A stretch of DNA of 64,000 nucleotides. Source: Lingula anatina (Eukaryota > Animalia > Brachiopoda). Each line of letters starts with the position of its first letter. Positions within the stretch are counted from its first letter, which is position 1. Shown one piece after another: positions 3,001 to 64,000 of this stretch. Location: positions 1,186,954-1,250,953 of the forward strand of contig CM120644.1 in assembly GCA_051362555.1 (NCBI GenBank), in the 5' to 3' direction. The notes under the pieces are model-generated. The model worked only from the letters and a program-made list of their open reading frames with translations. It made no database searches and was not told the DNA's origin. The position numbers were made by a program, and so were the translations under genes.

Positions 3001-6000
3001 TTAAAAACTTCCTCATAACTGGTCAACAAGCATGTACCTGCAGCATTTTTAGCTAACTGAGCTGGAAGTTGTGGCACCACTGGTATATCTCCTGCCAGCC
3101 TCTGTCCCTCTCCCCACTGATGATGTCCTCCTCCTCCTACAATATTATATAATATGATACAGTTACTGGGATATCTCCTGCCAGTCTCTGTCCCTCTCCC
3201 CAATGATGATGTCCTCCTCCTCCTACAATATTATATAATATGATACAGTTACTGGGATATCTCCTGCCAGTCTCTGTCCCTCTCCCCAATGATGATGTCC
3301 TCCTCCTCCTACAATATTATATAATATGATACAGTTACTGGGATATCTCCTGCCAGTCTCTGTCCCTCATCCCACTGATGATGTCCTCCTCCTCCTCCTC
3401 CTCCAATATTATATAATATGATACATTAACAATATAATATGATACAGTTACTGGGATATCTCCTGCCAGTCTCTGTCCCTCTCCCCACTGATGATGTCCT
3501 CCTCCTCCTACAATATTATATAATATGATACATTAACAATATAATATGATACAGTTACTGGGATATCTCCTGCAAGTCTCTGTCCCTCTCCCCACTGATG
3601 ATGTCCTCCTCCTCCTACAATATTATATAATATGATACACTGACAACACACTATGATACAATAACATACATTAACAGGACATATCATACAATAAGACACA
3701 TTAACAATACAATGCAATAAAATATGATTCAATAATATGAAATAATAACACAGAATGAGAGACGATAATACAGTTTTAATCATGAAATTTAACTTAAATT
3801 AAGATGAAATCCTTGGGTACAGTAATCCTTAGCTACAGTAAAATTAATGTAAAACAATGTAATCTTTTTTTCTTCTTTTTTCTTTTTCTTTTTTTTTTTG
3901 TAATAGTTTCTTATCAAATATACTAGATATCTGTCATGTCCTAGTGCCAAATGCTTCTGACTAAATTTGACAGTTTTTCATTACTAGTACTAGAAATGAC
4001 ACAAAAATCAATGTGTTTTGAAAAACCAAAAACTAGTGTCGTTTTTCTAGAATTGTTGGATTGTGTGGGGGGGGGTGGGAGGATGAGGGTGAGGAGGGGG
4101 AGGGGGGGGGGCTTGGGCTCCCTCTGTTGTTTAAAGTATAGATTTTAATTTTACATTATTTTGTCCACATTATTCCAGTTCCTCACCAAACATAGGATGT
4201 GGTGGTAACATTCCTGGCAAAACTCCTCCTCCTGGAACAACATCATGTCCTTCTTCCTCCATCTCTTCCTCCTCCTCATCATCTGATTCTCTGGCAGCAT
4301 CAGCAACAATGTCCATAGGAGACGGACCTAAAATATGTGGGGTAGGAAACAACATAAAAGTTTTTGGTCAACAACTTCACTCTGCTTAAGTATTGCATAA
4401 TATTTTATATATCCCCAAGAACCTTTAATGTTTCTTATACAGGGTAATATTTCACACAGAGGGTAACAATTTTGGATATGAATTATGTCTCTTACAGAAT
4501 CAAAATCATATGGGGTCCAAAAGGGCATCCAACAGAATTCCTATATGAAGTCTCACAGAGTCCTGTATAATTCTTATATGGAGTCCCACAGAGTCCTGTA
4601 AGATTCCTTTAATAGAGTCCTATGCAGTCCTTAAAGAAATTTACATAAGTGAAGTTCAGAAATAGTTTTTTTTTTTATAAATTATATAAAACCATGTCTC
4701 CCCTCACTTTCTGCCTGTTCCTGTACTCCACTGTCCTCTTCTTCAGTGTCCATCCTGTGTCCAGCCCCACCCCAGGAATGCCCCACTGGACTTCTAGTGG
4801 CCCCACCAACAGCTTCCTTATTGACAACTTTAGCTGGAAGGGGTAGTAATGGCGGCGGTGGTGGTGATAGTGAGGTGGCGCCATCTGGTCGTGTGTTCAT
4901 GGCTATGTCTGAGCTGCTGGATGAGGCTATATGGAGAGAGGCAATTGATGTCTGAACTTAAAGAAGTTAATGTCATAAATTCAATGATTCCAGGTGAACA
5001 ATTTTTATTTAGTTTTGAAAGTTAAACTGCCTGGTTCTTTAGAATATATAAGCAAAAAATACAGTTTTTAACCACAGCTTAATTGATAATATCCTTGATA
5101 TCTAACTAAGAAATATTTTTTCATATTGCTACTAAGAAACAAAAACTGCCTCAAATTTAATTTTTCAAATTCTATGAATAAATAAATAAATAAATTAATA
5201 GATTAACTAATAAATAAATAAAACTGAAAACAATGTTACCAGTATCTTCAGAGGCAGTCTCCATTTTCTTCAGCACCAGGGACCCTGTAGGGGTAAGCCC
5301 CAACTCAGAGAGGGACCGTGTCAGATCCTCTCTAGTGAACTCCCGCCTGGGAAAGGGTTGCATGAAGGCCATGCCTGGATATATACATATATATGTTAAA
5401 GAATAACATGTAACTGGAAAAATATTATTCATTTAGAAAGCTAAAGGCGATCATCAGAATTAATCAAATTACATAATATTGATAGAAACATAAAGTAGTA
5501 GTAATACCAGGGCGGCTTGATCATCAAATGCAAAAATTTACATAAAAAACACTTTTTCCTAGAAAAATGCATTAAATTCAATATGAATACCAATAAATAA
5601 GTAATGATACAAATCAGGTTCATTGAGTCATACAGATTACCCATCCAACTTACTACTAATCAACTAGCATATTAACTGATGGATCTGTAAAAATTAAACA
5701 CAAGCATTAAAGTAAAAGAAAGGATTTTCTTTCATCTTGCCTGTGATACTGTTTTGCCCTTGTTCCTGCACCAGGTGCCAGACATCACTGAGAGTGGCGC
5801 CAGGACTGAAAGTGTGTCTCAGAACTCTGCCATTCATCAGACGGATCTGTAAACAAAACCAACATGTTAAACAGAAATAAATGAAACAGAACTTAATTAC
5901 AACTTGATTCATCATCCAGATGTGAGAGATCTCGAACTAGGCCTGACTGTCCAACAATGATGTCAGTGCCACTCAACACAAACTTATCAGCTCAAATACT

Positions 6001-19100: not shown

Positions 19101-22100
19101 CCTAAGCGACCCCGTGGTCTGAGCAGGAAGGACTGTGTTGTGGTTACTGGGTTTCCTGACGCCATGTGCTTTGCTTTTAGAACTGACAACTCTGGCCCTC
19201 CTGTAGATATCAAGGCAGGTTGATGAGTACAATATTTGTGATATGTTATTATGTTATTGATATTATGTAACAAAATAGGGCCCAACTCATGAAAAAAAAA
19301 AGACTCGAAAATCTGTAGAAGTATAAAATATGAAAATAATTGTAGAATTTTTCAAGACATTTTGCATATGTAAAGAACTTAATAAAATTATATTTTAATA
19401 TAGTCAACAGCACTTTATGATTGTTGCACATAATTTGAATATTGTCCATTTAATTGTAATTTTATTTTTAATTCATTTATGACACATAAACTATTATTGT
19501 TTTACTTAGTGTTTATTTTCCTTGGTGTTATTTTAAATCAGGAAATCAAACGATACTTCAGCATCTTACAAGCAGAATTTCCAAATGCAGTCATCAAGGC
19601 ATCCAACCTGGAGACCTTCATGGCAACCATTGAACCAATCAAAGCCAAGCTTCCTGTGGTAACCAAGGAGATAGGAGACACTTGGATACAGGGCACAGCC
19701 TCTGACCCCAGAAAGCAGGCAGAGTACAGGGCTATAGCTAGAGTACTGGGGATATGTCTGGAAAGAGGTAGATATAGAAAGCAGGCAGAGTACAGGGCTA
19801 TAGCTAGAGTACTGGGGATATGTCTGGAAAGAGGTAGATATAGAAAGCAGACAGAGTACAGGGCTATAGCTAGAGTACTGGGGATATGTCTGGAAAGAGG
19901 TAGATATAGAAAGCAGGCAGAGTACAGGGCTATAGCTAGAGTACTGGGGATATGTCTGGAAAGAGGTAGATTTAGAAAGCAGACAGAGTACAGGGCTATA
20001 GCTAGAGTACTGGGAATATGTCTAGAAAGAGGTAGATATAGAAAGCAGACAGAGTACAGGGCTATAGCTAGAGTACTGGGGATATGTCTGGAGAGAGGTA
20101 GAAAATATCCCAAATACCTTGAGATTTAGTGAGTTCTGGAAAATAATCTTCCTGTATCCTCTGCTACATTTTTTTTCAGAAGGATACAGGTACACTGCAT
20201 ATGTCAGTGGTGAGATAAGTTAACTATAAACTGTAAAACACTGGGTCTACGTACCCAGCATTTGCATCAGACTGAAAACAAAGTTGCACCATTACTCCAA
20301 ATCAGTGCTCTGCTACTTTTTTTATATCACAGACTGCTGTTTAAAAAGTAAACTTAAAAGTAATTAAGTGGCTCAATGAATTAGATTTAAATGATAAATT
20401 TAGATCTTTTTTATTAAGACATGGATCTATGAAAAAAATTTATTTTATGATTAATATCACAGTCATAATTTATTGAGTTAACACATTGTATTTTCCTTGA
20501 TACTATCTTAATTTAAAATCAGTATGGTATTTAAGATATAAACAGCTAGTGCAATAATAAACAAACACTACAAAGCAGACTTTTAAAGAACAATTATCCT
20601 TCTTGTTTGTACAAATATTTAACTTGTATTTTACCAGGACAGTGTAGTCTACAGGATCACCAGATCTTGTTGTATTTACAATGTTGTATCTTGTATTTTA
20701 CCAGGACAATGTAGTCTACAGGATCACCAGATCTTGTTGTATTTACAATGTTGTATCTTGTATTTTACCAGGACAGTGTAGTCTACAGGATCATCAGATC
20801 TACAATGCCAGCAGGTTCCTGCTGAAGTTGGGGGAACACACCTGGGGGCTCAGCACAGAGTGGGACTTTGTGCACTGGACAAATGCTGAATTTAGCAGGT
20901 TTAGATCCAGTAAGATCAACAAATAAGTTACTGAAACAGTATTATAAATACTAATTGTGTGCATGTGAAATTTACTGGAAAACAATTCCTGAGAAGACGG
21001 AGAAATCAATTTGTTTTTTAAACATAAATAAATAAATTGATTAGATTTATTTATTTATTTATCTTGTTTGTTTGTTTGTTTCAGATAAAAACTTCACAGA
21101 CTGTGAGAATTCTTGGAGGGAGCAGAGGTCATTCTCCAGTCTAGCCATGGAAGCTATGGCCCAGCATGTGATTATAGCTGATGTTGAAGAGGAACTGGCC
21201 CAGCTCAGACCAGCCAAACCACACCTGGAAGGTACACTTTTACAGCCTGTTTATTTAACATTTCAGACTAGTCTTCACTTAGACTTCAGAGAGCAACTTG
21301 TTCAATATTTAAAACTGTAAAAGGAAATTCAAAGATAAATGTAGCAGTGATAGGAGAACACAAACCACCGTAGTCTCGGCTTTTATCTTGTTAGTCCACA
21401 GAGTCTGAAGAAAATTACTTGTACTGTAAGGGGCTGTTCAGAACCACTTGATCCAGTGGGAGCAGATGTGGCATGCACTTGACAAGGATTCCCGCCTCCC
21501 ATGTGCCCATCTGTAGATCTGAACAGACCCTAAGACCTCATTAACTAGTCTGAAGACCTTGTAATTTGAAAACAATGTAAAATCATCACAAAATTGTTGG
21601 GGCAATCGTGTTAGTTAAAATGAAAAACCTGTATCTTCTGGTAAACTGGTTGGACTGTCATTAAATGCCCTTGTATCAGCTGGATTGCCAATATACGATA
21701 TTTGATAGAGATTATGAATTAAGTACATTTGCATTTCCTAATTGTTTATTCTGTGGATTTGGAATGGACTTTGAGTTTCTATATGATGTGGAGTATCGTA
21801 TTTCTTAATGATATGGAGTATAAAGTTTCTATATGATGTGGAGTTTAATTGTTCAATTTAATGCAATTAGCACTTTAATACCAATAAAACATTATTGCAT
21901 TATTGATTATTACTGATATTTTGTATTTTTATTTTCAATTTCATCAAGATTTTGAGAGGATAGATTTAACAAGGGGAAGTCCAGTGTTTAAATGCAAGAA
22001 CTTAGATCTTCAGTTTGGAAGTGACGGAGCTTTGACCTTGTTGATAGATCACAGAACTGGGGTATGTGGAACTGCTGTTTTTAGTCTAAATCATTTAAAC

Positions 22101-25100
22101 TAATCAATTTTAATATTTTAATATATATATATACTATATGTTTTTGACGAGCACCTTTTGTCTTTTTAAGACAAGTAGTTACAGTTCAAAATACTAATGT
22201 GAATGCTTACATCATTACAGCACTCAAATTCATGAATTGAAATGTTTCTGGTTAAATTACTTGTTGCTGGTGAAAACTTTCTTCTTTTTTTTTCGGTTTT
22301 TTGTTTTTTGTTTTCTTTTGTTTTGTTTTTATGAAAATACAAATAGATTATATTAGTAGATAACAATTTAGGCAGAATATACTGATGTTGCTTCAGTCAC
22401 CCTGATTAATTATAAGTTTGATGAACAGACACACGGTATATTTCAGGTCCAGTGGGCAGATGTCCTCCATCCTCTTGGTCAGTTTAAATACGTCACCTAC
22501 AACGAGACCGATTTTGTCACCTTCAACAGACAGTATGCGTATAACATCAGTAGAAATGTGGGAATCATGAAGATAAACTGTTCTAAGTATGCCCACCAAG
22601 AGAGTAAACCCTGGCATGTAGATATGGTACAGCTTTACAAGAGGAAAGGTAATTATATATGAAGATAAACTGTTCTAAGTATGCCCACCCTGAGAGTAAA
22701 CCCTGGCATGTAGATATGGTACAGCTTTACAAGAGGAAAGGTAATTATATATGAAGATAAACTGTTCTAAGTATGCCCACCCTGAGAGTAAACCCTGGCA
22801 TGTAGATATGGTACAGCTTTACAAGAGGAAAGGTAATTATATATGAAGATAAACTGTTCTAAGTATGCCCACCCTGAGAGTAAACCCTGGCATGTAGATA
22901 TGGTACAGCTTTACAAGTAATTATATATGAAGATAAACTGTTCTAAGTATGCCCACCCTGAGAGTAAACCCTGGCATCTAGATATGGTACAGCTTTACAA
23001 GAGGAAAGGTAATTATATATGAAGATAAACTGTTCTAAGTATGCCCACCCTGAGAGTAAACCCTGGCATGTAGATATGGTACAGCTTTACAAGAGGAAAG
23101 GTAATTATATATGAAGATAAACTGTTCTAAGTATGCCCACCCTGAGAGTAAACCCTGGCATGTAGATATGGTACAGCTTTACAAGAGGAAAGGTAATTAT
23201 ATATGAAGATAAACTGTTCTAAGTATGCCCACCCTGAGAGTAAACCCTGGCATGTAGATATGGTACAGCTTTACAAGTAATTATATATGAAGATAAACTG
23301 TTCTAAGTATGCCCACCCTGAGAGTAAACCCTGGCATGTAGATATGGTACAGCTTTACAAGAGGAAAGGTAATTATATATGAAGATAAACTGTTCTAAGT
23401 ATGCCCACCCTGAGAGTAAACCCTGGCATGTAGATATGGTACATCTTTACAAGAGGATAGGTAATTTTATGTCCAGGCTTGTAGCTGACAGCTACAAAGG
23501 GAGAGAGGGTCTTAAATAGAAAATAATGACCTTACATTGAGAAATGGCACTGAACCTAGACCAAAATTTGATTCAGATTGGACCCTTTAAAGCCAAAATG
23601 GTAGTTCTTTCTATTTTTTATATATCACATTGTGTCAGATTAGAGTAGCGAGTAGAAGAGAAATATTTGAATATTGCAGATTGCTAGATGAAAGAAGCAA
23701 ACGTTTGCATGTGCAAACTAAATATAAATATATTTTAAATAATGTAGTATTTAAATGTAGTCTACAATCTCTTTGAAATATCTTGGTAACTGATAATTAG
23801 CTGCATCATTTTTGTATTGGTTTTTTTTATTACAGATTTTTCATCATGTGAGTTCTATGTCCAGTTACAGATGAGGGACTATTTAACCCAGACATTTTAT
23901 GGTGCACCCAGAGAAATATGGCTGCATTACACTGAGGATACACCCCCTGGTGGTCAAGCTGGTCAGTATGGACAGCGATTTAGGGTCCTCTTCCTATTTA
24001 ATATTAATAATAATAATAACCAATTTATTTTGAGTCTAAAATCCATTATAACGTGTTCAGAAGACTTTACACATACATAAAACAATTACTTTAAAAATCA
24101 ATTATTAGGAATAGATAAATGAAAAATTACAGAGCTTAACAACAAAAATATTTAAGAGTATTCTAGATAAAACATACAGATTCTCACATAAGCACTTACA
24201 GTAAATAACTAAAATATGTTTGTTAAGAAAAAATAATCAGTTCTAGAATAAAAAAACAGCCTTATTTATACTTTATTTGTAGTTAGACAGTGATTAAGAT
24301 CTTTTTCACACCTAACAGGACAGTTTAAAGATACAAACTTAAAACACGCATTTAGAGGTCTTTACATGTAATTATGCTCTCCAGGGGGTATTATTCCCCT
24401 TCACAACTTCACCACAAGTTTGCTTCATTTTGTTAATTTATTGACCCTGCCTGGCTAGTGCAGAGGCTTTATTTAGGTGACTGACTTACATAACAGCCAG
24501 GCTGTGAAGTTGTCAAACTTTTGCAAAATACCCATACAGACTGTACTGCTGTGGCATGGAAAAATGAAACATTGCAAAACAAAAACTTACATTGAATGAA
24601 AAGTAGATTTATTGAATATTTCAACACAGATCATGCCATATGCCACTTAATTGTACTTCTCCATTTGAAAAGGGCCTTATAATTAGTCATAGTTCATTGA
24701 ATTATACTTCACTGTTTATAAATGATGAAAAGCAGCCATGTTGTTTTTGTTGCCCTTATTGAAAAAATGTATCATTTATATATTTATGATGATAAATATC
24801 TAATTTTTAAGCCTTTGTCAATATCACTTCTCTAAGGTTGTGAAACAATAAATCAACCCATGTATTTTATATGTATAATATATTTATATACATATGATAA
24901 AACTATGAAATAATACAAGCAGTACATATTTAGTGATCTTCACAATCTTCTCATCCAGGCTTGAACCTTGACCTTCAGTGGTTTGACAAGACTGTGACTC
25001 GTCTGCCAGAAGCACTGATGTTTAGTTTCATGCCACGCCAGCAGAGGGCACACCAGTGGAGAATAAAGAAACTTGGGCGTTGGATTGACCCCGTTAATGT

Positions 25101-50434: not shown

Positions 50435-50562
50435 TCCTCTCTAGCTACATGTAGGGCGGCCATACTCATTGCGAACTACCCCAAAGTCACATGTTTTTCA
50501 TTTGTAGGCAGAGATAGTAGAATACTCGGAGATGGTGGGAGAAACGGTGTGATAATTCCAAA

Positions 50563-51631
50563 ATGAATCACGTCGAGGATAATGACCCGTTTGCTGTCCA
50601 GGAGAACGTGAAATACGTGACCTTTACCAGAACCAGTTCCACAGTGCTGGACACGTCGCAGGAGAAACAAAACCATGGCAACGGCAAGAATACCGACACA
50701 AACGCCAACCTCCCTCTTAGTATATATCTCACGAACTTTGCCAACGAGGTCAGCATTTTAGGACTGAAACAAGCCATTAACCCGAAATTCTCTCTGTTCC
50801 GACGGTTTATATGGGGCCTCTGCGTCATGGGTGGAATGATCTGTATGTTCTACCATATATACAACCGCTTTGCCACGTTTGCTGGGAATCCGGTGTCCGT
50901 TAACATTGCTGTGCATCACAAGGACTCTCTACAATTTCCCACTGTGACAATATGTAATAATAACGTATTCAATGCCAGCTCCCTGTCCTCCAATAACGAG
51001 TCTAGCGTGGCATACATGTACCCGCCCCACCGCCTGACACCAACGCCGTTTGCCAGTAGTGTGAACTGGACAGATTTCCATATTAGGAATGGATATGAAT
51101 TCGAGAACATTTATGGTGGCGTAAGTGGCTTTTAGTTATTTTTTTCCTCAAAAGCAACTTCAAAATATTTTAATGCAACCGATAAATTATGGCATCCGTA
51201 ATATATAATCGTTTAAATTTTCATGGATATAACTCTTAAAAAAGAACCAAAATTCGATCCAAATGAGCACCACGTATGCTTTAGAGATATACAAATGAAT
51301 TTACATGTAAAAAGACATGTTTAAATCTGATTTGTTGGAGCAACATTCTTTTATATATTTTTATTAGACAAATAGAATCACAAGAATCTTTTAAAAAGGA
51401 ATTAAAAACTCATATTTTTAAGACATTTTATTCATGAATCTTAAATTTTACAATTTTAAAGAAACCTTGGATTTTTTACTTTTAATTACTGTTTATTACA
51501 ATTAAGTTAGTTTAGCTCTTATTTATATAAAATATATCTTATTTTTATTTATAAACTATCTATAAACTTCTTTGTATTTTATGTTGTACAGTCTATTGAA
51601 CATTTTATGGATTTTAGACTTGAAATAAATA

Positions 51632-51663
<32 letters not shown>

Positions 51664-54450
51664 CCGAAAGCATCCGATATGTCAAGCTTATAATGTTTCA
51701 TGAGAGAAGTTAATATGAAACCAACTGTACTTTTAATCAACGTTCATCTATTAGTTCTGCGCCTGGGGTGCTTCAAGCGGCTCGGTGTCCTCATGCTCGG
51801 CTGCCAATTTTACTCCCGTGGTCACAGAAATGGGGCTTTGCTATCAGTTCAACTGCGGTAGGTAGTTCTGTTGGCAACTAATGATCAGCTTTCTTTTGTC
51901 ATTCGTTTGGTTTTAGCATCTCAAAAAGTGCGCTTTTATTACTGTTTTTCTCAAATGGAGGACTGTTAGTGTCATTAATTATTTATAAAGAATTTTATGA
52001 CCAAATCACTTTACTATGTTTATTAGAGATATTGTTTAGATGAAATATCGGACTATTAGTTTTTCGTTCACTCCTTAATTAGCTCAATGAGCTTTACAAC
52101 AGGACATTAATTCGATATGCTTCAGCCCTAAGCCGCGTTTTAACGATTGGTCTCTAAGCTGCTGGTACCACAGGTAGTAGACGCGTAGTTGCACCTGTGG
52201 ATTCTGACTAAATTGACCACCTGTCTTGGAGTTACGAGTCCACTACTTAGGGTCGATAGGCTGTAGTGTTTTCTATCAAAACTGTCCTGCCGGTTGTATA
52301 GAAAATTCTATACTGTCACTTGTATTTAGAACAATTAGACATACGCCATTGTTTGAGAAACCTTCAATATTCATTTTCCATTTCAAAAATGCGTTAAAGA
52401 AATGCCTCATTTACGAATTAGTTTTTATTTTTCTAATCAGGCGATACCAACTTGAAAACGTGGGTAGAGGGGTCATCTAATGGCCTCACTCTTCATCTCT
52501 GGACCGCCCAAGAGGAGGCGCTGTCGTCGGTATTTACAGCGGGATACACGGTAATGTCGTCTGCTTTTTGTGAAGAATAACCAACAGTTTTATCGTTTTT
52601 TTAAGGTTAATTGCTCAGCACGCCATCAGTCAACTTGAAGTGACAGCTCAAATCGGATTACCAAGTCAAACATCGATTTTTGGAGTAAATAGGAGTGTTT
52701 TAAAACATTACATTATAGTGACATCAGGATTTAATTTCTGGTGTCATAGGAAAAGAAGTCCCACTCATATTTATGCCCGGATTTAAGTTCCCATTAGGAC
52801 TATTGCTCGTAAGGAATAGTGGTTCGTAGGATCTTGGTTCCTGGCGGACTGCATTCCGTTTACTCCGGCACTCCACGTACAGAAAAATTATCAACTTCAA
52901 ACCAGAACTTTCTTACAAGATGTTAGTTACATACATTAATGGACATGCAAAATTCCTGTCATGTGGGCACTCCCTTCACTAGTATCAACTTTTAACCAAA
53001 ATTTAGTTACAACATGTAAGTTATATTCATATTTGGACCTGTAAAATGGTTATGCATCTTGCCTCTTGTTTTTTTTTTTCTTAAATGCAGTTTTTATACC
53101 TTTAACGATATAAACATTGCTACAAGTATCAATTGAAGATATTTAATTGAACATTTTCATCAATTTAATGTGTATTTCCCTTCTCCCAATATACACCAGG
53201 TTCGCGTCCACAACCCTCACGAATTCCCAGAGATTCGGAGTCGCGGGCTCCTCGTGGCCCCCGGAGCCACTACCCAGCTGTCCATTAAACAGGCTCGGGT
53301 ACGGTAACAAGTCTTTAGTGTATACAGAACTGTATAGATGACCCGTTTATAGCGGGAAATGAGATGGCAAAACCGTCGCCAATTTATTGATTCTTTATTA
53401 TTAGCATATTAGGACAGGATTAACGGTTATTAAAAAAAACTATATCCTTTTGTACCTGTTCGTCAAGTGTATATGTAGATGGAAATTATTGATTTGTTGA
53501 AAATCAATCTAGGAATAAGTATGATGAATTAGGAAAAGGGCTGTTGGAGAGAAAATGTTCACTTATATTATTGATAACAAGCCTTTGCATCACTTGTAAA
53601 CTCTATGTTCTTCTGCTCCATTTAAGGCTCAGAATCTTCCGTCACCTTACGGTAACTGTAGAGACGGCAGTTTGACGTATTTCAGAGAGTACTCCAAGGT
53701 TAACTGCATGGCAGAATGCAAGTAAGTCCAGTACAAAACTAATAGCTAGCGAAGGTACACTGTATATCCAAAACTTGACGTAGCAATCGCTGTTGTAGAC
53801 AGTGCTGGGAAAGGCAGGAAATGTAATCCTTCATAATACTTTAATAAAAATTGGCTCTATCGAAAAATATAAAAAAATGTTTCTGATATGCCCACATTGA
53901 TTTAATTTTATTTGCATTTATTGAAATCTGTTTGTTCATTCATTTATTAATTTACATAATTATTTATTTCAGCCATAAAAACATAATGCAGAAATGCGGT
54001 TGTCGTCTGCACTACTATCCCCCAGTGGCGGGAACGAGGGAATGCTCCCCTTATGACGTCTACACTTGCGTTGGTCAACAGCTTGTCATCGACTCCGATG
54101 AGAAGGCGGCCGCTTTAAACTGCGACTGTTCAGAGCCGTGCAGCGGAGTATCATACCAGCACGGAGTGACACACAGCCGGATATCCGACTCCTACGCAAA
54201 TTACTCCGCGACTATAACTGGCAAGTCACCCGAATACGTGAATTCGAATTATGTCATCTTAAAAGTGTATTACTCTGATTTAAGTTACCAGGAAACTATA
54301 CAAAGTGCTTCGTACCCATTTCTGACACTTCTAGCAGATATAGGTGGCGCACTTGGGCTCGTCCTGGGCATGACCATGATGACTCTGGTGGAGGTGGTCG
54401 ATTTCTGCTTCCAGCTGTGCTGGCTGCAGTTCTACAAAAGGAAAACTTAA
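50563..54450 (+). CDS. DEG/ENaC (ASIC-like) ion channel subunit, ~480 aa, 6 coding exons
   Basis: Exons approx 50563-51120, 51755-51857, 52441-52550, 53200-53298, 53628-53722, 53973-54450. Motifs RRFIW-TM1, FPTVTICNNN, MGLCYQFN, LPSPYGNC, the Cys-rich thumb (C...C...CGC...C.C...C) and TM2 LLADIGGALGL. Confidence 0.93.
51560..51661 (+). mobile_element. Possible LINE/SINE 3' tail ending in aataaa-(ATT)n
   Basis: gaaataaatatattattattatt... tail typical of L2/CR1-type ends; no coding part seen. Confidence 0.3.
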
Positions 54451-55690: not shown

Positions 55691-56459
55691 CTACCCGAGG
55701 ATTGCCGAGCAGCGACAGAAGTCCTTCGGGCAGTACCCTGCTGCGCAGTTAGACTGACACCAAGAGTCGTGAGCAGCGCCGTCCTGCTTGTTAGAGCCGA
55801 TGTAGACGCAGTTCTTCCCTCCTGACTGCCCGCCGCTGGTTTTTGGTGGCTCGGTACGTTTGGGAGGGACGGTGTGGGTGACAGGGGCCTCCGTCCGAGA
55901 TGTCACTGGACCGGTGGTGAACGGTTTAATGTTAATGGCGCCCTTCCCTAATTGGGAATTTAAAATACAACCAAATTAAAGTTTTACTCATAAAAACATA
56001 TAACCTAGAAATGTTATTTTTTTAATTGCAATCGTTCTGGTGAAAATAGGGTTTCCGTTACACCTAAGATGTAGGAAAAAAAACAGCTATTTATTCCATC
56101 CAACTTTTCGCCAGAAATAAAAGAAACAAAATGGTTATCATAAACGTATTTAAAGAAAGAAAAGGAGAAGTGCTGTATTAGTGTACTTGTGAAAGTAGTC
56201 CATGGTGCTATTTACCGATAGATACGTCCGCGCAGTTATAAAACTCCTCCTGAGGTCCGCATCCTAGGCAACCACGCCCATTAGCGTCCGTACCCCAGCT
56301 GTTACCTAGGTATAAATGAAACCATAAAGAGATGTAGCTCTGGGATATCAAATATAGGGATATCAAACTTCTGTTAATTGTTTAATAGGCTTTATATTGT
56401 ACTTTCCCTTTCAATAATTTCAGAGAAAAATGAATGTCAGCATAGCTGCATGTAAATGG

Positions 56460-56498
<39 letters not shown>

Positions 56499-58001
56499 TA
56501 AAGAGAGGGGGAGAGGGAGTAACTTCCGCATTATTTTAGGGTTTGCAACAAACCATGGAAGAGGAATTAAATGTGGGAGTTGGGCAAAGAAGAAATACCA
56601 ACTGAAATAGACAAGCACGAGGGTTCTCACCTGTACGATATTTCCACTGCATCACACACTGAGAGCAGGTGAGACCAGCAGGCAGCTTGTATTTCATTCT
56701 GTATGTGGTGGGTCCTTTATCAACCTGGGTGCGAGCACCGCTACCATCCGCTCTCTGGGAACAAGACATGTGACGGCTTTGGATTTGTTTCCCAAGCCAA
56801 TATGGTAAACGTACCTTTTTTCTCGTATTCTACTTCACACAAAGCTGTGCACAATATTCCCGTTTTTGTTCTAATCTCTTAACACGTGGATACTCTGAGT
56901 TTGTACAGAATATGCGTTTTGTTTCGTAAAAAGAAATCTTTTTTTTCAATTTTTTTTAAAATTATGGTCTAATTTTGAGAAATATGTAACTATTTACTCT
57001 TAAATATCTGCTATTTGGTCTCAGTTTTCTTTTTATTGTGGTTATTCTTTTCCTTAATCTTTGTAAAATTTGATAAACTCTTTATATGCTACTCAAAAGA
57101 ATGCCAAAATTTGATATCTTAACATAAATTCATACTATCCTATCAAACGATTATGGCGCGTGCAATATGAACATGTGATTGTGGGAAACAAAAGTCTTTC
57201 ACAAGCAAAAAAAAGTCCACATCGGCACTTAATTCAATACCAGCTAAATCTGTTCAAAAGAACAAGACACCGTGTAATATATGATATAGTTTACCTGCAG
57301 CAGGTACCTGTCCAGACAGGCCTGAGTGGCCGGGATACTGGGGTTGTTATGAGGACATAACCGGAACTCAAACCAGCCCTTATGCGCAGCCGTCAAATAG
57401 ACCTCGATGTCGATGACTTGACCGGTTTGATAAGAACGCACGATGGTGCCGGTTGCATAGCGACCGCCAGCTTCATGGTCACGTTTTCCGTCGTAGGGGT
57501 CGCCACAGATGCCGCATTTCCCACCGTTAGTGTTCCATTGCCTCTGTGGATAGGATGAATAGCACAAAAAGTGACCATTTTATAAAACGAAAAAACCATT
57601 GACTTAAAACTTCTTACCGCAAAATTATTTACCTAAACCATTTTTCCCTACCGAATTTTCACCATATTTAATTGAAATGGGCTGTATCTGCGATAGGGCC
57701 TACACTCTGCAGTGGGTAAAAACTAGCGTGCCTCAAAGAAGAGGGGTCGATCTTTAGATTCTTTCAAAGCGAAATAAAGAAAACAAACAAGCGAGTTTTT
57801 CCGGATGTATCTTTCATATTTAGCAATAGTTACCGAAAATCCCCCACAGTACAGTCCGTCATCGTCGTAATTGGTCGGAGTGCCGAACCCGAACCGCCAC
57901 GCGCAGTTCCTAGACGGTGGATTGGTCAGTCGGCCGTGACCTTTGACATAGTGGACAGCCAATAAGCTGACCAACGCACAACACAGCACGAGCTTCATCA
58001 T
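55691..58001 (-). CDS. AA15-type lytic polysaccharide monooxygenase (chitin-binding type-4 domain) with a Thr/Pro linker and Cys-rich C-terminal module; isoform using the proximal exon 1
   Basis: Exons 57834-58001 (signal peptide + HGRL..PP.R..AWR.G...NY.D..LYCGG), 57295-57543 (GKCGICGDPY, TAAHKGWFEFRLC), 56631-56754 (LP.GLTCSQCVMQWKYRTG), 56216-56305 (NSWG...GCGPQEEFYNCADV), 55691-55947. Confidence 0.93.
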
Positions 58002-58759
58002 TTCTGCGTCAGTTTTGATCGCGCTGCAGACGACATCGATGGGAAAGGTGTCGTCTGCTTACAGTCACATGGTGCCTCATGACCCAATTGACCTAGCCTT
58101 GAGACCGTCCTCCTACTGAAGTCACGCTTAATGTGTCACCAAGGAGTTTTGAAACAGGGGTTCAGAAACCCTTGTCTGCAGGGCTTGTCGGTAACTATTA
58201 TGCGCTTTTGCACAGCGATAGAGATTGACCTATAGGACCGGCGAGTTCTGCGTAGAGGACTTATGGTTCATCTTATAACCTTGGGAACCTTCACATTTGG
58301 GGAGTCTGCAAACTAATGCTGGCAATATTGATATGGCACATGTTTAACTTGGTTTCCTCGTGAACTCGTAGTGCAGCTTCACGTCATATTCAACTTCCCA
58401 TTTTGTTCATAGCTTCAATCTTATTATTAGATATTATTTTATTTATTTATTTATTGTGACAATTGTCTAAAGTAGACGACAGTTCAAAGTTTTAGAATAA
58501 ATTACCCGCAGTGAAAGTCGAAGAACTAGCTTCGCCGCACTAAGTTCCACAGTCAAATGCCACTAACAAATATTTTAAACGCCGCGCACTTTCACTTTTC
58601 AATTGAGACTCGTAGGTGTAAGTATTGGTAGTAATATCATGATTTAGTAAAGCGATCTTGCACGTTAGACCAGATGTCCTGAAGGGAAAACATTGAAACA
58701 ATTGCAAAAGTGTACACTGTCGGTTTAGGACAAACAATACTAGTACGTGTGTTTGTGCT

Positions 58760-58839
<80 letters not shown>

Positions 58840-58899
58840 TATGCAGGCAGGTATAAGAGATGTAAGCGCAGCTTAGACATAGATTACTGCAACCAATAG

Positions 58900-58944
<45 letters not shown>

Positions 58945-58954
58945 AAGAGCCTAC

Positions 58955-59122
58955 CCCCTTTCCGCCGCAGTACAGTCCGTTATCGCTGTAGTTGGGTGGC
59001 GTGTTGAAGCCATACCGCCAGGCACTGTTCCTGGCCGGAGGATCGGACATTCTTCCATGACCTCTGACCTCTTGGACAATCACTATGACAACCAAAACAT
59101 ATATTACGTTCAGCTTCGTCAT
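58955..59122 (-). CDS. Second (distal) first exon of the AA15 LPMO: signal peptide + His1 segment
   Basis: MTKLNVIYVLVVIVIVQEVRG/HGRMSDPPARNSAWRYGFNTPPNYSDNGLYCGGKG followed by GTAGGC; 168 nt and phase 0, the same length and phase as exon 57834-58001. Confidence 0.85.
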
Positions 59123-59269
59123 GGCGGTGCAAGGTCTATGATGTCGATTTCACCGAGTGTGGATCAGGTTTATGATATGTGAGGATTTATGTGGCGTTAG
59201 GAGGATGCAGGTTTGTACGTTCCCATCGATAAATGCGTAGAACAGTATACGAATCATTATCCCCACCCC

Positions 59270-60674: not shown

Positions 60675-63600
60675 TTTTTTTTTTTTTTTTTTTTTATTCA
60701 CAAAAAGACAAACAAAAATACATCTGTAGACACACACACTAACACACACACACACACAATAACACACACAAGACATTCATTATACATTAAGTAAACATGT
60801 AGATAGCCGGACTACGTACGAAACAGTATATTACAAGTGATGCTGCACATAACAAGATACCAACATTTTACATTTCACATAAGAAATTAGCGAAAAAGTA
60901 AAGTAAATTTATAAGTGGAGAAACTAGTCAAAAATAGAATCCCAGGTTCTCCACTCTGTAAGAAAATGGCCTAATTGAAGATTTTTTTGAGAAACATATT
61001 TTTCTAATTCGAATTTTGTTTTGATATATAAGAGAAGGGAAGGGAAGGTCGGCTGCATTTTTCTTTTAAAACAAGTATATATATAAAATTTGGAGACAAG
61101 AATAATGTAATTTAGAGGCTTGAAATTTGTTTTGGATACTCCAAAAAGTATATTTTCATCATAGAGTGTAATTCTTTCATCAGTTTTGTTAGCAATCAAG
61201 CGTTCCATTTCAGTCCAAATGTTTCTTATTCGATAGCAATTTAAAAATACATGTCGCAAATCTTCCCTCTCCGCTCCACAGATAAAGCATTTCTCTGACA
61301 CCTCAATACCGATTCTTTTCAGGTATGACCTAACTAGTAAGATTCTAAAAATTATTCTGTATTGGAACCATTGAAGTTTTGTTTCTCGTGTAACATAGAA
61401 ACAATTCTCGTAAACATACTTCCAAGTGATATTTATATTTAGATCTAGGTTCCATTTCCTTTCGTGTACCAAGTTTTCAGGAGCTTCACTCATGAGAACC
61501 TGATAGAAATCTTTACACCCATTTCGACTCTTTATAAGTAGCTGAACCGGCTGAGGAACATAAGGAAATAAAATATCTTCAAAAATTTCTTCATTGTTCT
61601 TTTCTTTTAGCCTACATTTTAAACTGTTACGTATTCCAAAATATTTTAGATCACATACTCTTTGAAATCCAAATTTCCTTTCCAGTTCAGCTTTGGTTAA
61701 AAATTTTCCTTCGTTGAAAAGATCGCCAATTATTCTTGTACCCTTATTGTACCATTCTTTGTCCAATATTGATACCCCACCCAATTTTACTTTTCTATTA
61801 TACCACAGAGGTTCAAGAGCAATATTGCTATTCATATCTTCTATACCGTATGTTAAATCTTTCCAGGAGATAATGACATCTTTCCAAAACCTGTTATTGC
61901 AATTGCGTAAGAGTATATCTAAATAATCATTTCCATAGTCAAATATATTCCAAATAGATTGTAAATCAAAGGTGCTCTGGAGAATAGTGTTATAAACGTT
62001 ATTTTTAAGGTATAGTCTTCTTATCCATGTACATTTTAATGCCGTTATGAATTTACTTAAGTCTGTCATTTTTAGACCACCATATTCATAATCCTTTACT
62101 ATCTGACCTCTCTTTACCTTATCAATTTTGCTACCCCAAATGAATTGGAAAAAAATGGAACTTAGTTTTTTTATGAATACTGGATCTGGATTTGGCAGAG
62201 AAATGAAAAGATGGTTCAGCATTGGGATGATAAGGGTTTTTAAGATATTAATTCTACCAATAGGGGTAAGTATTCTTCTATTCCAATGCCGAATCATACC
62301 CTCTATCTTCGGGATTTGTTTATCAAAGTTTAAAGTGACCATATCGTTTAAATTTACCGAGAATTCTATACCTAAGAGATTAAATTGAGTCGAACCCCAA
62401 TCAAGTTTCCATCTAACGTGGTGAAAAACTTCCCGACTATATTTTCTTGAGCCAATCCACACTGGTTTAGTCTTGCTATTGTTGATATGGAGACCTGAAA
62501 TTTTTGAGAAATAGTCTAATGTACGGAAAGATTCTAAGAAAGAAGACCTATTACCATCTAATATAAGGGTGGTGTCATCAGCATACTGGATTATTTTAAA
62601 TTCGGTGTCACCAAGTTTTATTCCGCAAATATCTTTATTATTCTTTATCATGATTGCGAGAATCTCAGCACAAAGCAGAAAGATATAGGGAGACAAGGGG
62701 TCCCCTTGACGACAGCCCCTCGAAATTTTGAAAGGCTCCGACAAGTGGCCGTTTTGTGTAACAGAGGCCTTGCTATCGTAATTAAGGATATAAAACCACC
62801 TTTTTATAGTTTCCCCAAAATTAAAAAAGTCTAAAACTTTATCAATAAAGCCCCAATCTACAGAATCAAAGGCCTTTTCAAAATCGATAAGAATGAGTAA
62901 AGCAGGAATATTTTTCTTTTCTGCGATATGCATTAGATCATAAATTAATCTTGTATTTTCCCCAATATATCTTCCGGCAATAAACCCGGACTGAGAATTA
63001 GAAATAATTTTATCAAGATAGAGTTTCATTCTTTCCGCTATGCAGCCCGAGATCATCTTGTAAATAACATTTAAAAGGGTTATAGGCCTCCAATTTTTTA
63101 TAAATTTTCTGATTTTATCGGCTTTTGGAATACAGGTTATAATCCCAAGATTTTGACTCGCCATCATTTTCTCATTGATGAAAATTTCATTAACTGCTCT
63201 AATTATAAAACTATGTAAATCATTCCAAAAAAAATTATAAAACTCTGCAGTAAAGCCATCAGATCCAGGCGATTTGTTATTTTTCATTTTTTTCAGCACC
63301 CTCAAAAGTTCCTTTGAGGTAATTTCGGTTTGTAAATATTCCTTATCAGGCTCGCTTAATTTGGGGACATCTAAATTTGCAAAAAATAATTCTAGGTCTA
63401 CCTCTTCTAATTGATTAGTTTTTGACGAGTAAAGGCGTTCATAAAATAACTTTGCTTCATTTAGTATAAGTTTTTGATCAAATATTGTTGTTCCGTCTGG
63501 TAGTTCTAAATTCTGAATAGTTTTATTGACATAATTTCTGGATTCAAGTGAACAAAAATATTTCGTAGGCTTCTCTCCTTCCTCAATCCATCTGCATTTT

Positions 63601-64000
63601 GCTCGGACGAGGACTCCTTTTAGTTTTTCTTGTCTGATATTTTTCAACGCCTCCCTCTTAGCCTCAAGTTCGTCCAAATAATTTTCATTTGGGTGGTTCA
63701 TTTCCATTACATAAATTTCTCTTTCTAGTTCTAATTCTTGCCTGTCCCTTTGTTTTTTCTTAACAGAGGAATGGGAAATTGTCATTCCTCTAATTTCCAT
63801 TAAAAGCATTTCTAAAAATAAGGAGTCATCAATAGTGAAAGATATTTGTTCGTTTGGAATTTCTGTAATATTTTCTTCGGCGTACACCGGAACTGCATAT
63901 TGAACTTTTGTTCTCTTAATTATGTCCTTCACTTTACTCACATATTCCTCATCTTTTAAGAGGGAACTGTTAAATACCCAAGTGCCTTTGCCCTTAATAA
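60675..64000 (-). mobile_element. L1/Tx1-clade LINE, 3' part with poly(A) tail; continues beyond the window
   Basis: Long ORF2, ~230-nt 3' UTR, AATAAA merging into a poly(A) tail (T-run 60675-60695 on the + strand). Confidence 0.93.
60924..64000 (-). CDS. LINE ORF2 (reverse transcriptase + C-terminal zinc-binding domain), 5'-truncated by the window edge
   Basis: Frame stays open to the edge (...KGKGTWVFNSSLLKDEEYVSKV). Motifs KSPGSDG, NWRPITLLN, DFEKAFD, GCRQGDPLSP, QYADD and CFIC..EDLRHVFLNC; no stops over more than 1000 codons. Confidence 0.95.
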   Translation of the reverse strand, partial: IKGKGTWVFNSSLLKDEEYVSKVKDIIKRTKVQYAVPVYAEENITEIPNEQISFTIDDSLFLEMLLMEIRGMTISHSSVKKKQRDRQELELEREIYVMEMNHPNENYLDELEAKREALKNIRQEKLKGVLVRAKCRWIEEGEKPTKYFCSLESRNYVNKTIQNLELPDGTTIFDQKLILNEAKLFYERLYSSKTNQLEEVDLELFFANLDVPKLSEPDKEYLQTEITSKELLRVLKKMKNNKSPGSDGFTAEFYNFFWNDLHSFIIRAVNEIFINEKMMASQNLGIITCIPKADKIRKFIKNWRPITLLNVIYKMISGCIAERMKLYLDKIISNSQSGFIAGRYIGENTRLIYDLMHIAEKKNIPALLILIDFEKAFDSVDWGFIDKVLDFFNFGETIKRWFYILNYDSKASVTQNGHLSEPFKISRGCRQGDPLSPYIFLLCAEILAIMIKNNKDICGIKLGDTEFKIIQYADDTTLILDGNRSSFLESFRTLDYFSKISGLHINNSKTKPVWIGSRKYSREVFHHVRWKLDWGSTQFNLLGIEFSVNLNDMVTLNFDKQIPKIEGMIRHWNRRILTPIGRINILKTLIIPMLNHLFISLPNPDPVFIKKLSSIFFQFIWGSKIDKVKRGQIVKDYEYGGLKMTDLSKFITALKCTWIRRLYLKNNVYNTILQSTFDLQSIWNIFDYGNDYLDILLRNCNNRFWKDVIISWKDLTYGIEDMNSNIALEPLWYNRKVKLGGVSILDKEWYNKGTRIIGDLFNEGKFLTKAELERKFGFQRVCDLKYFGIRNSLKCRLKEKNNEEIFEDILFPYVPQPVQLLIKSRNGCKDFYQVLMSEAPENLVHERKWNLDLNINITWKYVYENCFYVTRETKLQWFQYRIIFRILLVRSYLKRIGIEVSEKCFICGAEREDLRHVFLNCYRIRNIWTEMERLIANKTDERITLYDENILFGVSKTNFKPLNYIILVSKFYIYTCFKRKMQPTFPSLLLYIKTKFELEKYVSQKNLQLGHFLTEWRTWDSIFD

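What the first reader, a model, noticed from the sequence alone, without database searches (positions are those of the whole stretch)
57834..59122. LPMO gene with two interchangeable first exons, each supplying its own signal peptide, copper-binding His1 and part of the substrate-binding face
Seen: two intact 168-nt, phase-0 exons (57834-58001 and 58955-59122) each encode a signal peptide followed by HGR..., with 23/35 identical mature residues. Only ~950 bp of microsatellite-rich DNA separates them, with no copy of exons 2-5 in between, so both can only splice onto the single exon 2 at 57543. Established: His1 after signal cleavage forms the LPMO histidine brace. As I recall from the Thermobia AA15A structure, Tyr24 and Phe34 are surface aromatics on the binding face. 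Here both exons keep Y24, but position 34 is Phe in the proximal exon and Lys in the distal one. Inference: alternative promoters swap the catalytic N-terminus on a constant body and may tune substrate (chitin vs cellulose) or tissue. This would be a variable-first-exon LPMO, analogous to the UGT1A or protocadherin layout.
Basis: partly seen in the sequence, partly recalled or inferred. Interest (0 to 1): 0.82.

Follow-up and report, generated by a model that had tools for sequence, protein, structure and literature searches.

The report
Brachiopod chitin enzyme, two first exons
A lamp-shell (Lingula) gene for a copper enzyme predicted to cut chitin has two intact, long-diverged copies of its first exon in front of one shared body, so it likely makes two secreted versions with different copper-holding front ends, although only the farther copy appears in a database gene model and no RNA read yet shows the nearer one.

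Summary
Two 168-nt, phase-0 first exons (23/35 mature residues identical) precede one exon 2-5 body of an AA15 LPMO, Lingula anatina LOC106179736. Either exon gives a stop-free 295-aa frame. The copies are old (dS about 0.9, flanks unalignable), yet dN/dS is about 0.28 and both keep every near-invariant family residue, so both were kept by selection until at least recently. The distal exon is the supported one: RefSeq uses it, and one RNA fragment joins exon 2 to something other than the proximal exon. The proximal exon has no read among 8 laid, which is too few to decide. A chitin/cellulose switch is unlikely: the chitin-linked axial Phe lies in the shared body, and Phe34 is not named in the TdAA15A paper's main text. 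The exons differ mainly in charge beside Tyr24 (-3 vs 0). Best reading: two alternative first exons giving two chitin-type isoforms (about 0.7). The layout is a known kind, not found described for LPMOs. The scan noted similar layouts for other genes in this genome, none for an LPMO.

The parts
58955..59122 (-). Distal coding exon 1: signal peptide plus mature residues 1-35 (His1, Tyr24, Lys34); donor GGG|GTAGGC
   Evidence: matches the N-terminus of RefSeq XP_013418916.1 with 2 residue differences
59185..59191 (-). TATA-like CATAAAT starting 69 nt upstream of the distal ATG (candidate promoter element, consensus recalled, untested)
   Evidence: no such motif within 400 nt upstream of the proximal ATG
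57834..58001 (-). Proximal coding exon 1: signal peptide plus mature residues 1-35 (His1, Tyr24, Phe34, an extra Cys12); donor TCG|GTAACT
   Evidence: no transcript evidence
58002..58954 (-). 953-nt spacer: part of the distal intron 1 and presumed upstream region of the proximal exon; holds dinucleotide repeats, no exon 2-5 remnant
   Evidence: one sense-direction read pair at about 58247-58398 (not needed; geometry)
57295..57543 (-). Shared exon 2 (249 nt; second copper His, mature His89, and Ala87)
   Evidence: 100% identical to P0003; Pfam LPMO_10; RNA reads in X1 and X2
56631..56754 (-). Shared exon 3 (124 nt)
   Evidence: X2 reads lie on exons 2 and 3
56216..56305 (-). Shared exon 4 (90 nt; Trp163 and axial Phe181)
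55691..55947 (-). Shared exon 5 coding part (257 nt): Thr/Pro linker and six-Cys C-terminal module, stop codon

Best explanation
One Lingula AA15 LPMO gene carries two homologous coding first exons before a single shared body and likely splices either one onto exon 2 from separate start sites, which would give two secreted 295-aa isoforms, both predicted to be chitin-active. Each exon supplies its own signal peptide, copper-binding His1, the Tyr24 surface segment and Cys31, while His89, Ala87, Trp163, the axial Phe181 and the C-terminal module stay constant. Neither exon needs a switch mechanism: a first exon has no upstream partner, so transcripts started at the distal exon skip the proximal one. 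The isoforms would differ in where or when they are made (inferred) and in charge next to Tyr24 (residues 23-35: -3 proximal, 0 distal, with F34 vs K34). That likely tunes binding to different chitin matrices rather than switching chitin to cellulose. Shown: anatomy, frames, selection, distal isoform in RefSeq. Inferred: use of the proximal exon, separate promoters, chitin activity, the functional difference.
For: Both spliced frames are 295 aa without stops. The proximal donor matches the recalled U1 consensus at 6/9 positions, the same as the exon 4 donor and better than the distal donor at 5/9. Mature-part dS 0.92, dN 0.26, Fisher p=0.003. Flanks are unalignable (p 0.96 and 0.75). In 5000 neutral simulations per level, the proximal exon kept frame, start, donor and 13 conserved residues in 18% of runs at 0.05 substitutions per site, 2.9% at 0.1 and 0.04% at 0.2, so it cannot have been dead for long. 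Its profile score (95.3 bits) is close to the distal exon's (98.1), and 22% of the 85 homologues score lower. Distal exon plus this body is RefSeq XP_013418916.1, with 4 of 295 residues different, so likely another haplotype. One X1 read pair leaves exon 2 at the acceptor for sequence outside the laid stretch (geometry). Axial Phe goes with chitin-only activity in TdAA15B (PMC5823890, passages). Lingula makes chitin in mantle, gut and chaetae (PMC4595640, passages).
Against: No read lies on the proximal exon in 4 of 4 runs laid (8 reads in all, only 1 fragment informative). RefSeq lists a single protein without isoform suffix and its 90% cluster has 1 member, although a proximal isoform would be 91% identical. 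Searches with the proximal exon found no protein that carries it. The proximal exon has Cys12, seen in 0 of 85 homologues and likely unpaired in a ten-Cys domain. It has no TATA-like motif within 400 nt, and an upstream ATG lies 35 nt before its start. dS rests on only 35 codons. No second Lingula or brachiopod genome could be checked.
Confidence: 0.68

Rival explanations
1. Only the distal exon is used. The proximal exon is a recently silenced relic, either of an exon duplicate or of a tandem paralogue pair in which one body was deleted and the distal promoter took over the remaining body.
For: RefSeq has only the distal isoform. There are 0 reads on the proximal exon, and the one informative fragment is non-proximal. 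Cys12 is absent from 85 of 85 homologues. Tandem AA15 paralogues are common in molluscs, e.g. several on one Mizuhopecten or Argopecten contig.
Against: Silence must be recent. If loss of function fell at a uniform point on the branch, the chance of a still intact exon is about 0.06 (toy model). Rare residues are shared out evenly: the distal exon has M4 (1/85), S5 (0/85), S25 (2/85), K34 (4/85). The gene is barely expressed in the runs laid, so absence means little. In a deletion origin the proximal exon would keep its native promoter.
Confidence: 0.21
2. Both exons are used and the swap changes the substrate class, chitin for one isoform and cellulose or another glucan for the other.
For: Exon 1 holds Tyr24, which bounds the flat binding surface (PMC5823890, section 9). 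In AA10 enzymes a motif on loop L2, whose charge differs between chitin- and cellulose-active members, tracks specificity (PMC6771041, passages); its match to the AA15 Tyr24 segment is my inference, not an alignment result. The two exons sit near opposite ends of the family's charge range for residues 23-35: -3 vs 0, where homologues span -4 to 0 and only 4 of 85 have 0.
Against: Axial Phe181 and Trp163 are constant, and Phe is invariant at that column in all 89 aligned rows whatever residue 34 is. Both exons keep a polar motif after Tyr24, unlike the hydrophobic cellulose-type AA10 motif. Phe34 is not named in the main text of PMC5823890 or PMC9156745, and none of the 20 listed of 48 papers in a targeted search held both TdAA15A and F34/Phe34.
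Confidence: 0.07
3. Assembly artefact: two full paralogues were collapsed or misjoined, leaving two first exons and one body.
For: The spacer holds microsatellites and a LINE lies 1.8 kb upstream. No DNA reads were laid over the junctions.
Against: Exons with dS near 0.9 and unalignable flanks imply bodies too divergent to collapse. The RefSeq protein, which differs at 4 residues and so likely comes from another haplotype, already joins the distal exon to this same body, with exons 2-4 identical. The window has no N.
Confidence: 0.03

Closest known systems
CAZy AA15 LPMOs: TdAA15A (PDB 5MSZ) and chitin-specific TdAA15B of Thermobia domestica (PMC5823890; section 9 and passages read)
   Same: phmmer E 3e-62 over the whole domain. 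Foldseek E 5.5e-26, TM 0.94 by target, rmsd 1.0. His1, second His, Ala, ten Cys and Tyr24 are conserved; axial Phe as in TdAA15B.
   Different: Those are separate genes, each with one N-terminus. Here two N-termini share one body, with a C-terminal six-Cys module and Trp at the Tyr166 position.
Lingula anatina LOC106179736, RefSeq XP_013418916.1 (P0003)
   Same: The same gene: 291 of 295 residues identical to the distal-exon frame.
   Different: Annotated as one uncharacterised protein. The proximal exon is not represented.
[quoted passage not shown]
   Same: Homologous coding first exons in tandem before a constant region; 40 of 236 human events swap an N-terminal region. In UGT1 the variable part forms the acceptor-binding pocket.
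   Different: Only two exons are seen, each just 35 mature residues. The swapped piece carries a metal ligand that must be residue 1 after signal cleavage. Use of both exons is not yet shown.
Mizuhopecten yessoensis AA15 LOC110452820 isoforms X2 and X3 (XP_021357189.1, XP_021357190.1)
   Same: RefSeq isoforms of one AA15 locus that differ only at the N-terminus. X3's start matches the neighbouring model KP79_PYT16194.
   Different: They differ at 5 leader residues only and the mature enzymes are identical. They may be read-mapping mosaics of near-identical tandem paralogues (not tested).

Membership tests
AA15 LPMO | Cleavable signal peptide that exposes His1 | tested here: met
   Both leaders are 21 aa, strongly hydrophobic, and end V-x-G before His, as in 55 of 83 homologues. 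No dedicated signal-peptide predictor was available.
AA15 LPMO | Second brace His, neighbouring Ala and axial aromatic residue | tested here: met
   Mature His89, Ala87 and Phe181 align to His91, Ala89 and Tyr184 of 5MSZ.
AA15 LPMO | Ten conserved cysteines and the AA15 beta-sandwich fold | tested here: met
   Ten Cys in the domain of the distal isoform, eleven in the proximal. AlphaFold2 model of P0003, mean pLDDT 86.9; best Foldseek hit 5MSZ. The proximal isoform was not modelled.
AA15 LPMO | Copper-dependent oxidative cleavage of chitin or cellulose | not testable with these tools
   Needs an enzyme assay.
Variable-first-exon gene (UGT1A/GCNT2 type; tandem duplicated exon substitution) | Two or more homologous coding first exons of the same phase before one constant region | tested here: met
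   two exons only. DNA beyond the LINE (past 64000) could not be searched.
Variable-first-exon gene (UGT1A/GCNT2 type; tandem duplicated exon substitution) | Each variable exon kept by purifying selection | tested here: met
   Pairwise dN/dS about 0.28, p=0.003, and neutral simulations. A recent loss of function is not excluded.
Variable-first-exon gene (UGT1A/GCNT2 type; tandem duplicated exon substitution) | Each variable exon is spliced to the constant exon 2 in transcripts | tested here: inconclusive
   Distal: RefSeq model plus one fragment whose outer letters were not shown. Proximal: 0 of 8 reads.
Variable-first-exon gene (UGT1A/GCNT2 type; tandem duplicated exon substitution) | Each variable exon has its own promoter | tested here: inconclusive
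   A TATA-like motif lies upstream of the distal exon only. No start-site data. A shared non-coding leader is not excluded.
Variable-first-exon gene (UGT1A/GCNT2 type; tandem duplicated exon substitution) | Layout conserved in related species | not testable with these tools
   No brachiopod genome could be searched. Among 128 fetched AA15 proteins, no pair shared a body while differing this much in the first 35 residues; the nearest was 0.86 vs 0.95, between two Mytilus species.

The most novel reading that the evidence does not exclude
This is a first case of an LPMO whose copper-binding N-terminus and Tyr24 binding segment are swapped by alternative first exons on a constant body. It gives Lingula an acidic, Phe34 isoform and a neutral, Lys34 isoform for different chitin matrices (for example gut peritrophic chitin versus the apatite-bound chitin of shell or chaetae), a natural single-segment chimera pair that tests what sets AA15 substrate preference.
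Probability: 0.3. Interest if true: 0.68.

Novelty: new variant of a known kind. Interest (0 to 1): 0.45.

Why it matters
What sets substrate preference in animal AA15 LPMOs is open; PMC5823890 itself asks for more characterised members. Two natural isoforms that share 239 of 274 mature residues by construction and differ at 12 positions around His1 and Tyr24 would isolate the effect of that segment on binding and activity in one experiment. It would also add a metalloenzyme active-site ligand to the list of parts swapped by duplicated first exons. If the proximal exon proves silent, it is an ordinary partial duplicate.

Tried and rejected
Own-genome search: no whole genome is held, so further exon-1 copies past 64000 were not looked for. 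Run search: no RNA holder listed; 9 same-species raw RNA runs were offered. Read laying: 4 of the 9 runs, 6-25% of each read, on 56520-58400 only; X4 and X7 gave 0 reads and are no test; no joint or loose end reached the reporting threshold, and depth on the distal exon was not measured. Protein searches with the proximal exon: none among longer proteins, where even P0003 was missed, so the search is weak; one 57%-identical exon-1-like read-through from another source among 30-98 aa proteins (P0169). A sequence stretch at about 58680 that looks like an acceptor followed by a decayed exon 2 did not beat shuffles. The position of residue 34 on the surface could not be measured because no model coordinates were returned; the model only places it at the start of a helix that spans the exon junction. 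A profile search of PDB did not retrieve AA10 sequences, so the L2-motif correspondence stays unaligned. Pfam does not detect the 56-aa exons alone. Literature: no paper on Lingula or brachiopod LPMOs (0 papers with 4 of 5 terms); none on alternative LPMO exons in the listings, of which 23 and 45 were swamped by unrelated papers, and the one hit (PMC10507238) was seen only as a listing. A first gene-model script used a wrong exon-5 start and was corrected.

Full report
Observation. On the minus strand, 58001-57834 and 59122-58955 are each 168 nt, begin with ATG, encode a 21-residue leader followed by HGR, and end in a phase-0 GT donor. They share 23 of 35 mature residues and 113 of 168 nt. The body is exon 2 (57543-57295), exon 3 (56754-56631), exon 4 (56305-56216) and exon 5 (55947-55691). 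Either first exon gives a stop-free 295-aa frame. A six-frame profile search of the whole window found two exon-1 hits and one hit for each other exon. DNA alignment against shuffles found no remnant of exons 2-5 in the 953-nt spacer, in the 290-nt proximal intron or upstream of the distal exon; 1 of 22 comparisons reached p<0.05, at 0.045.

Identity. Exon 2 is 100% identical to Lingula anatina LOC106179736, XP_013418916.1. That protein begins with the distal exon and differs from the window's distal frame at 4 of 295 residues, so it likely comes from another haplotype; PMC4595640 reports 1.6% heterozygosity (passages). It is an AA15 LPMO: phmmer E 3e-62 to PDB 5MSZ; AlphaFold2 model of P0003 with mean pLDDT 86.9; Foldseek best hit 5MSZ, TM 0.94, rmsd 1.0. 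His89, Ala87, Trp163 and Phe181 align to His91, Ala89, Tyr166 and the axial Tyr184 of TdAA15A, and all four lie in the shared exons.

Age and selection. In the mature part, dS is 0.92 and dN 0.26 (Nei-Gojobori with JC correction, 35 codons; Fisher p=0.003); second codon positions match at 30 of 35 and third positions at 21 of 35. The 150 nt upstream of each ATG and downstream of each donor align no better than shuffles. 23 of 35 is about the median identity, 22, between any two of the 85 homologues, so the copies are as far apart as unrelated AA15 members. Both keep all 13 chosen family-conserved residues. In neutral simulations the proximal exon kept its frame, start, donor and those residues in 18% of runs at 0.05 substitutions per site, 2.9% at 0.1 and 0.04% at 0.2. 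It has therefore been under selection for most of its history. The test cannot exclude a recent loss of function, and it cannot tell exon duplication from deletion of one body of a tandem gene pair. The homologue counts use 85 of the 122 proteins then held: 99 matched the N-terminal pattern, 88 had a 35-residue segment, and the 3 from this gene were removed.

Transcripts. RefSeq has one protein, without isoform suffix, that uses the distal exon; its 90% cluster has one member, though a proximal isoform would be 91% identical. Two searches with the proximal exon found no protein carrying it; one search also missed P0003 and is weak. Four of nine same-species RNA runs were laid on 56520-58400, which holds exon 3, exon 2 and the proximal exon but not the distal one. 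Only 8 reads were laid: X1 4, X2 4, X4 0, X7 0. X2's reads lie on exons 2 and 3. In X1, two reads are only partly laid; by the depth table they stop at about 57544 and run on unlike the stretch for about 28 and 79 letters, with zero depth on the proximal exon (geometry). I infer one spliced fragment from exon 2 into the distal exon; its outer letters were not shown. X1's other pair lies unspliced at about 58247-58398 in the same direction as the exon reads. It may be distal pre-mRNA or a leader of a proximal transcript. So 0 of 1 informative fragments used the proximal exon, which decides nothing.

Signals. The proximal donor matches the recalled U1 consensus at 6 of 9 positions, like the exon 4 donor; the distal donor matches at 5 of 9. 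A TATA-like motif starts 69 nt before the distal ATG; none lies within 400 nt of the proximal ATG, which has an out-of-frame ATG 35 nt upstream. An acceptor-like CAG sits 22 nt before the proximal ATG; splicing the distal exon to it would reach a stop after four codons, so the two exons cannot be joined productively. A shared non-coding leader upstream of both is not excluded.

What the swap would change. PMC5823890 names Tyr24 and Tyr166 as the aromatics that bound the flat surface and does not mention Phe34 in its main text (supplements not read, and they may bear on this). PMC9156745 repeats Tyr24 and Tyr166 (passages). Position 34 is F in 62, Y in 10 and K in 4 of 85 homologues, so the distal Lys is the unusual state. 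The same paper links an axial Phe to chitin activity and shows TdAA15B active on chitin but not cellulose; PMC8393829 repeats the link (passages). That residue is constant here and invariant in the 89-row alignment. A chitin-to-cellulose switch is therefore unlikely. The clearest difference is charge: residues 23-35 carry -3 in the proximal exon (D25, D26, D27) and 0 in the distal one (S25, N27, K34), where homologues run from -4 to 0 and only 4 of 85 have 0. In AA10 enzymes an L2-loop motif of this kind tracks substrate (PMC6771041, passages); the match to this segment is my inference. The proximal exon also adds Cys12, found in 0 of 85 homologues, to a ten-Cys domain. This could be early decay or a tolerated change; the distal exon has equally rare residues, and the two profile scores are close, 95.3 and 98.1 bits.

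Mechanism and odds. Most likely two start sites each feed a first exon onto exon 2, giving two secreted chitin-type LPMOs that differ in expression and in the surface next to Tyr24 (0.68). Lingula makes chitin in mantle, gut and chaetae (PMC4595640), so distinct matrices exist. Rivals: a recently silenced proximal exon (0.21), a true substrate-class switch (0.07), an assembly artefact (0.03). A toy calculation gives about 0.06 for an exon that died at a random time still looking intact; I weighed this against the missing RefSeq isoform by judgement.

Comparison and novelty. Duplicated first exons on a constant body are a known kind: 40 of 236 human tandem-exon events swap an N-terminus (PMC9741552, passages), and UGT1, GCNT2 and PCDH clusters are the textbook arrays (PMC1885805, abstract). 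I found no description for an LPMO; the library lacks most subscription papers. Among 128 fetched AA15 proteins no pair shared a body with such different N-termini; Mizuhopecten LOC110452820 isoforms X2 and X3 differ only in five leader residues. Unchecked notes of this scan report multiple first exons for androglobin and two opsins in this genome, and for an ACE and a Gasp gene elsewhere; none of the 8 listed of 10 LPMO notes describes this layout. If those notes hold, the layout is recurrent in Lingula, which makes this case more plausible and less surprising. Verdict: real, old and probably functional; a new variant of a known kind; interest 0.45.

Noticed in passing
window 60924-64000, minus strand: LINE retrotransposon with an uninterrupted frame of at least 1024 aa (RVT_1, zf-RVT) and a poly(A) tail near 60697-60673, about 1.6 kb upstream of the distal exon; likely young. 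It hides whatever lies further upstream.
   Followed up: partly
window 50521-54450, plus strand: DEG/ENaC-type channel gene (Pfam ASC) lying tail to tail with the LPMO gene.
   Followed up: partly
window 19710-20102, plus strand: Six 66-nt tandem copies at 96% identity inside an open frame, repeating the end of an apparent coding exon (weak DUF5054 match, below cut-off). Each copy ends in GGTAGATAT, which may offer several alternative donors.
   Followed up: no
window 22567-23470: Ten copies of a 92-nt tandem repeat at 95% identity; other arrays of 86 and 107 nt at 3079-3660.
   Followed up: no
window about 58247-58398: One unspliced X1 read pair in the spacer, in the same direction as the exon reads: distal pre-mRNA or a proximal 5' leader.
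   Followed up: partly
P0016 and P0123 (Mizuhopecten LOC110452820 X2, X3): RefSeq isoforms of a scallop AA15 gene differ only in five leader residues; X3's start matches the neighbouring paralogue model P0008.
   Followed up: partly
P0037 (Lingula LOC106158689) and P0005: Other Lingula AA15 genes: one fused to a GH18 fragment (PF00704), one with a long Thr-rich linker that shares N11 and G28 with both exons here.
   Followed up: no
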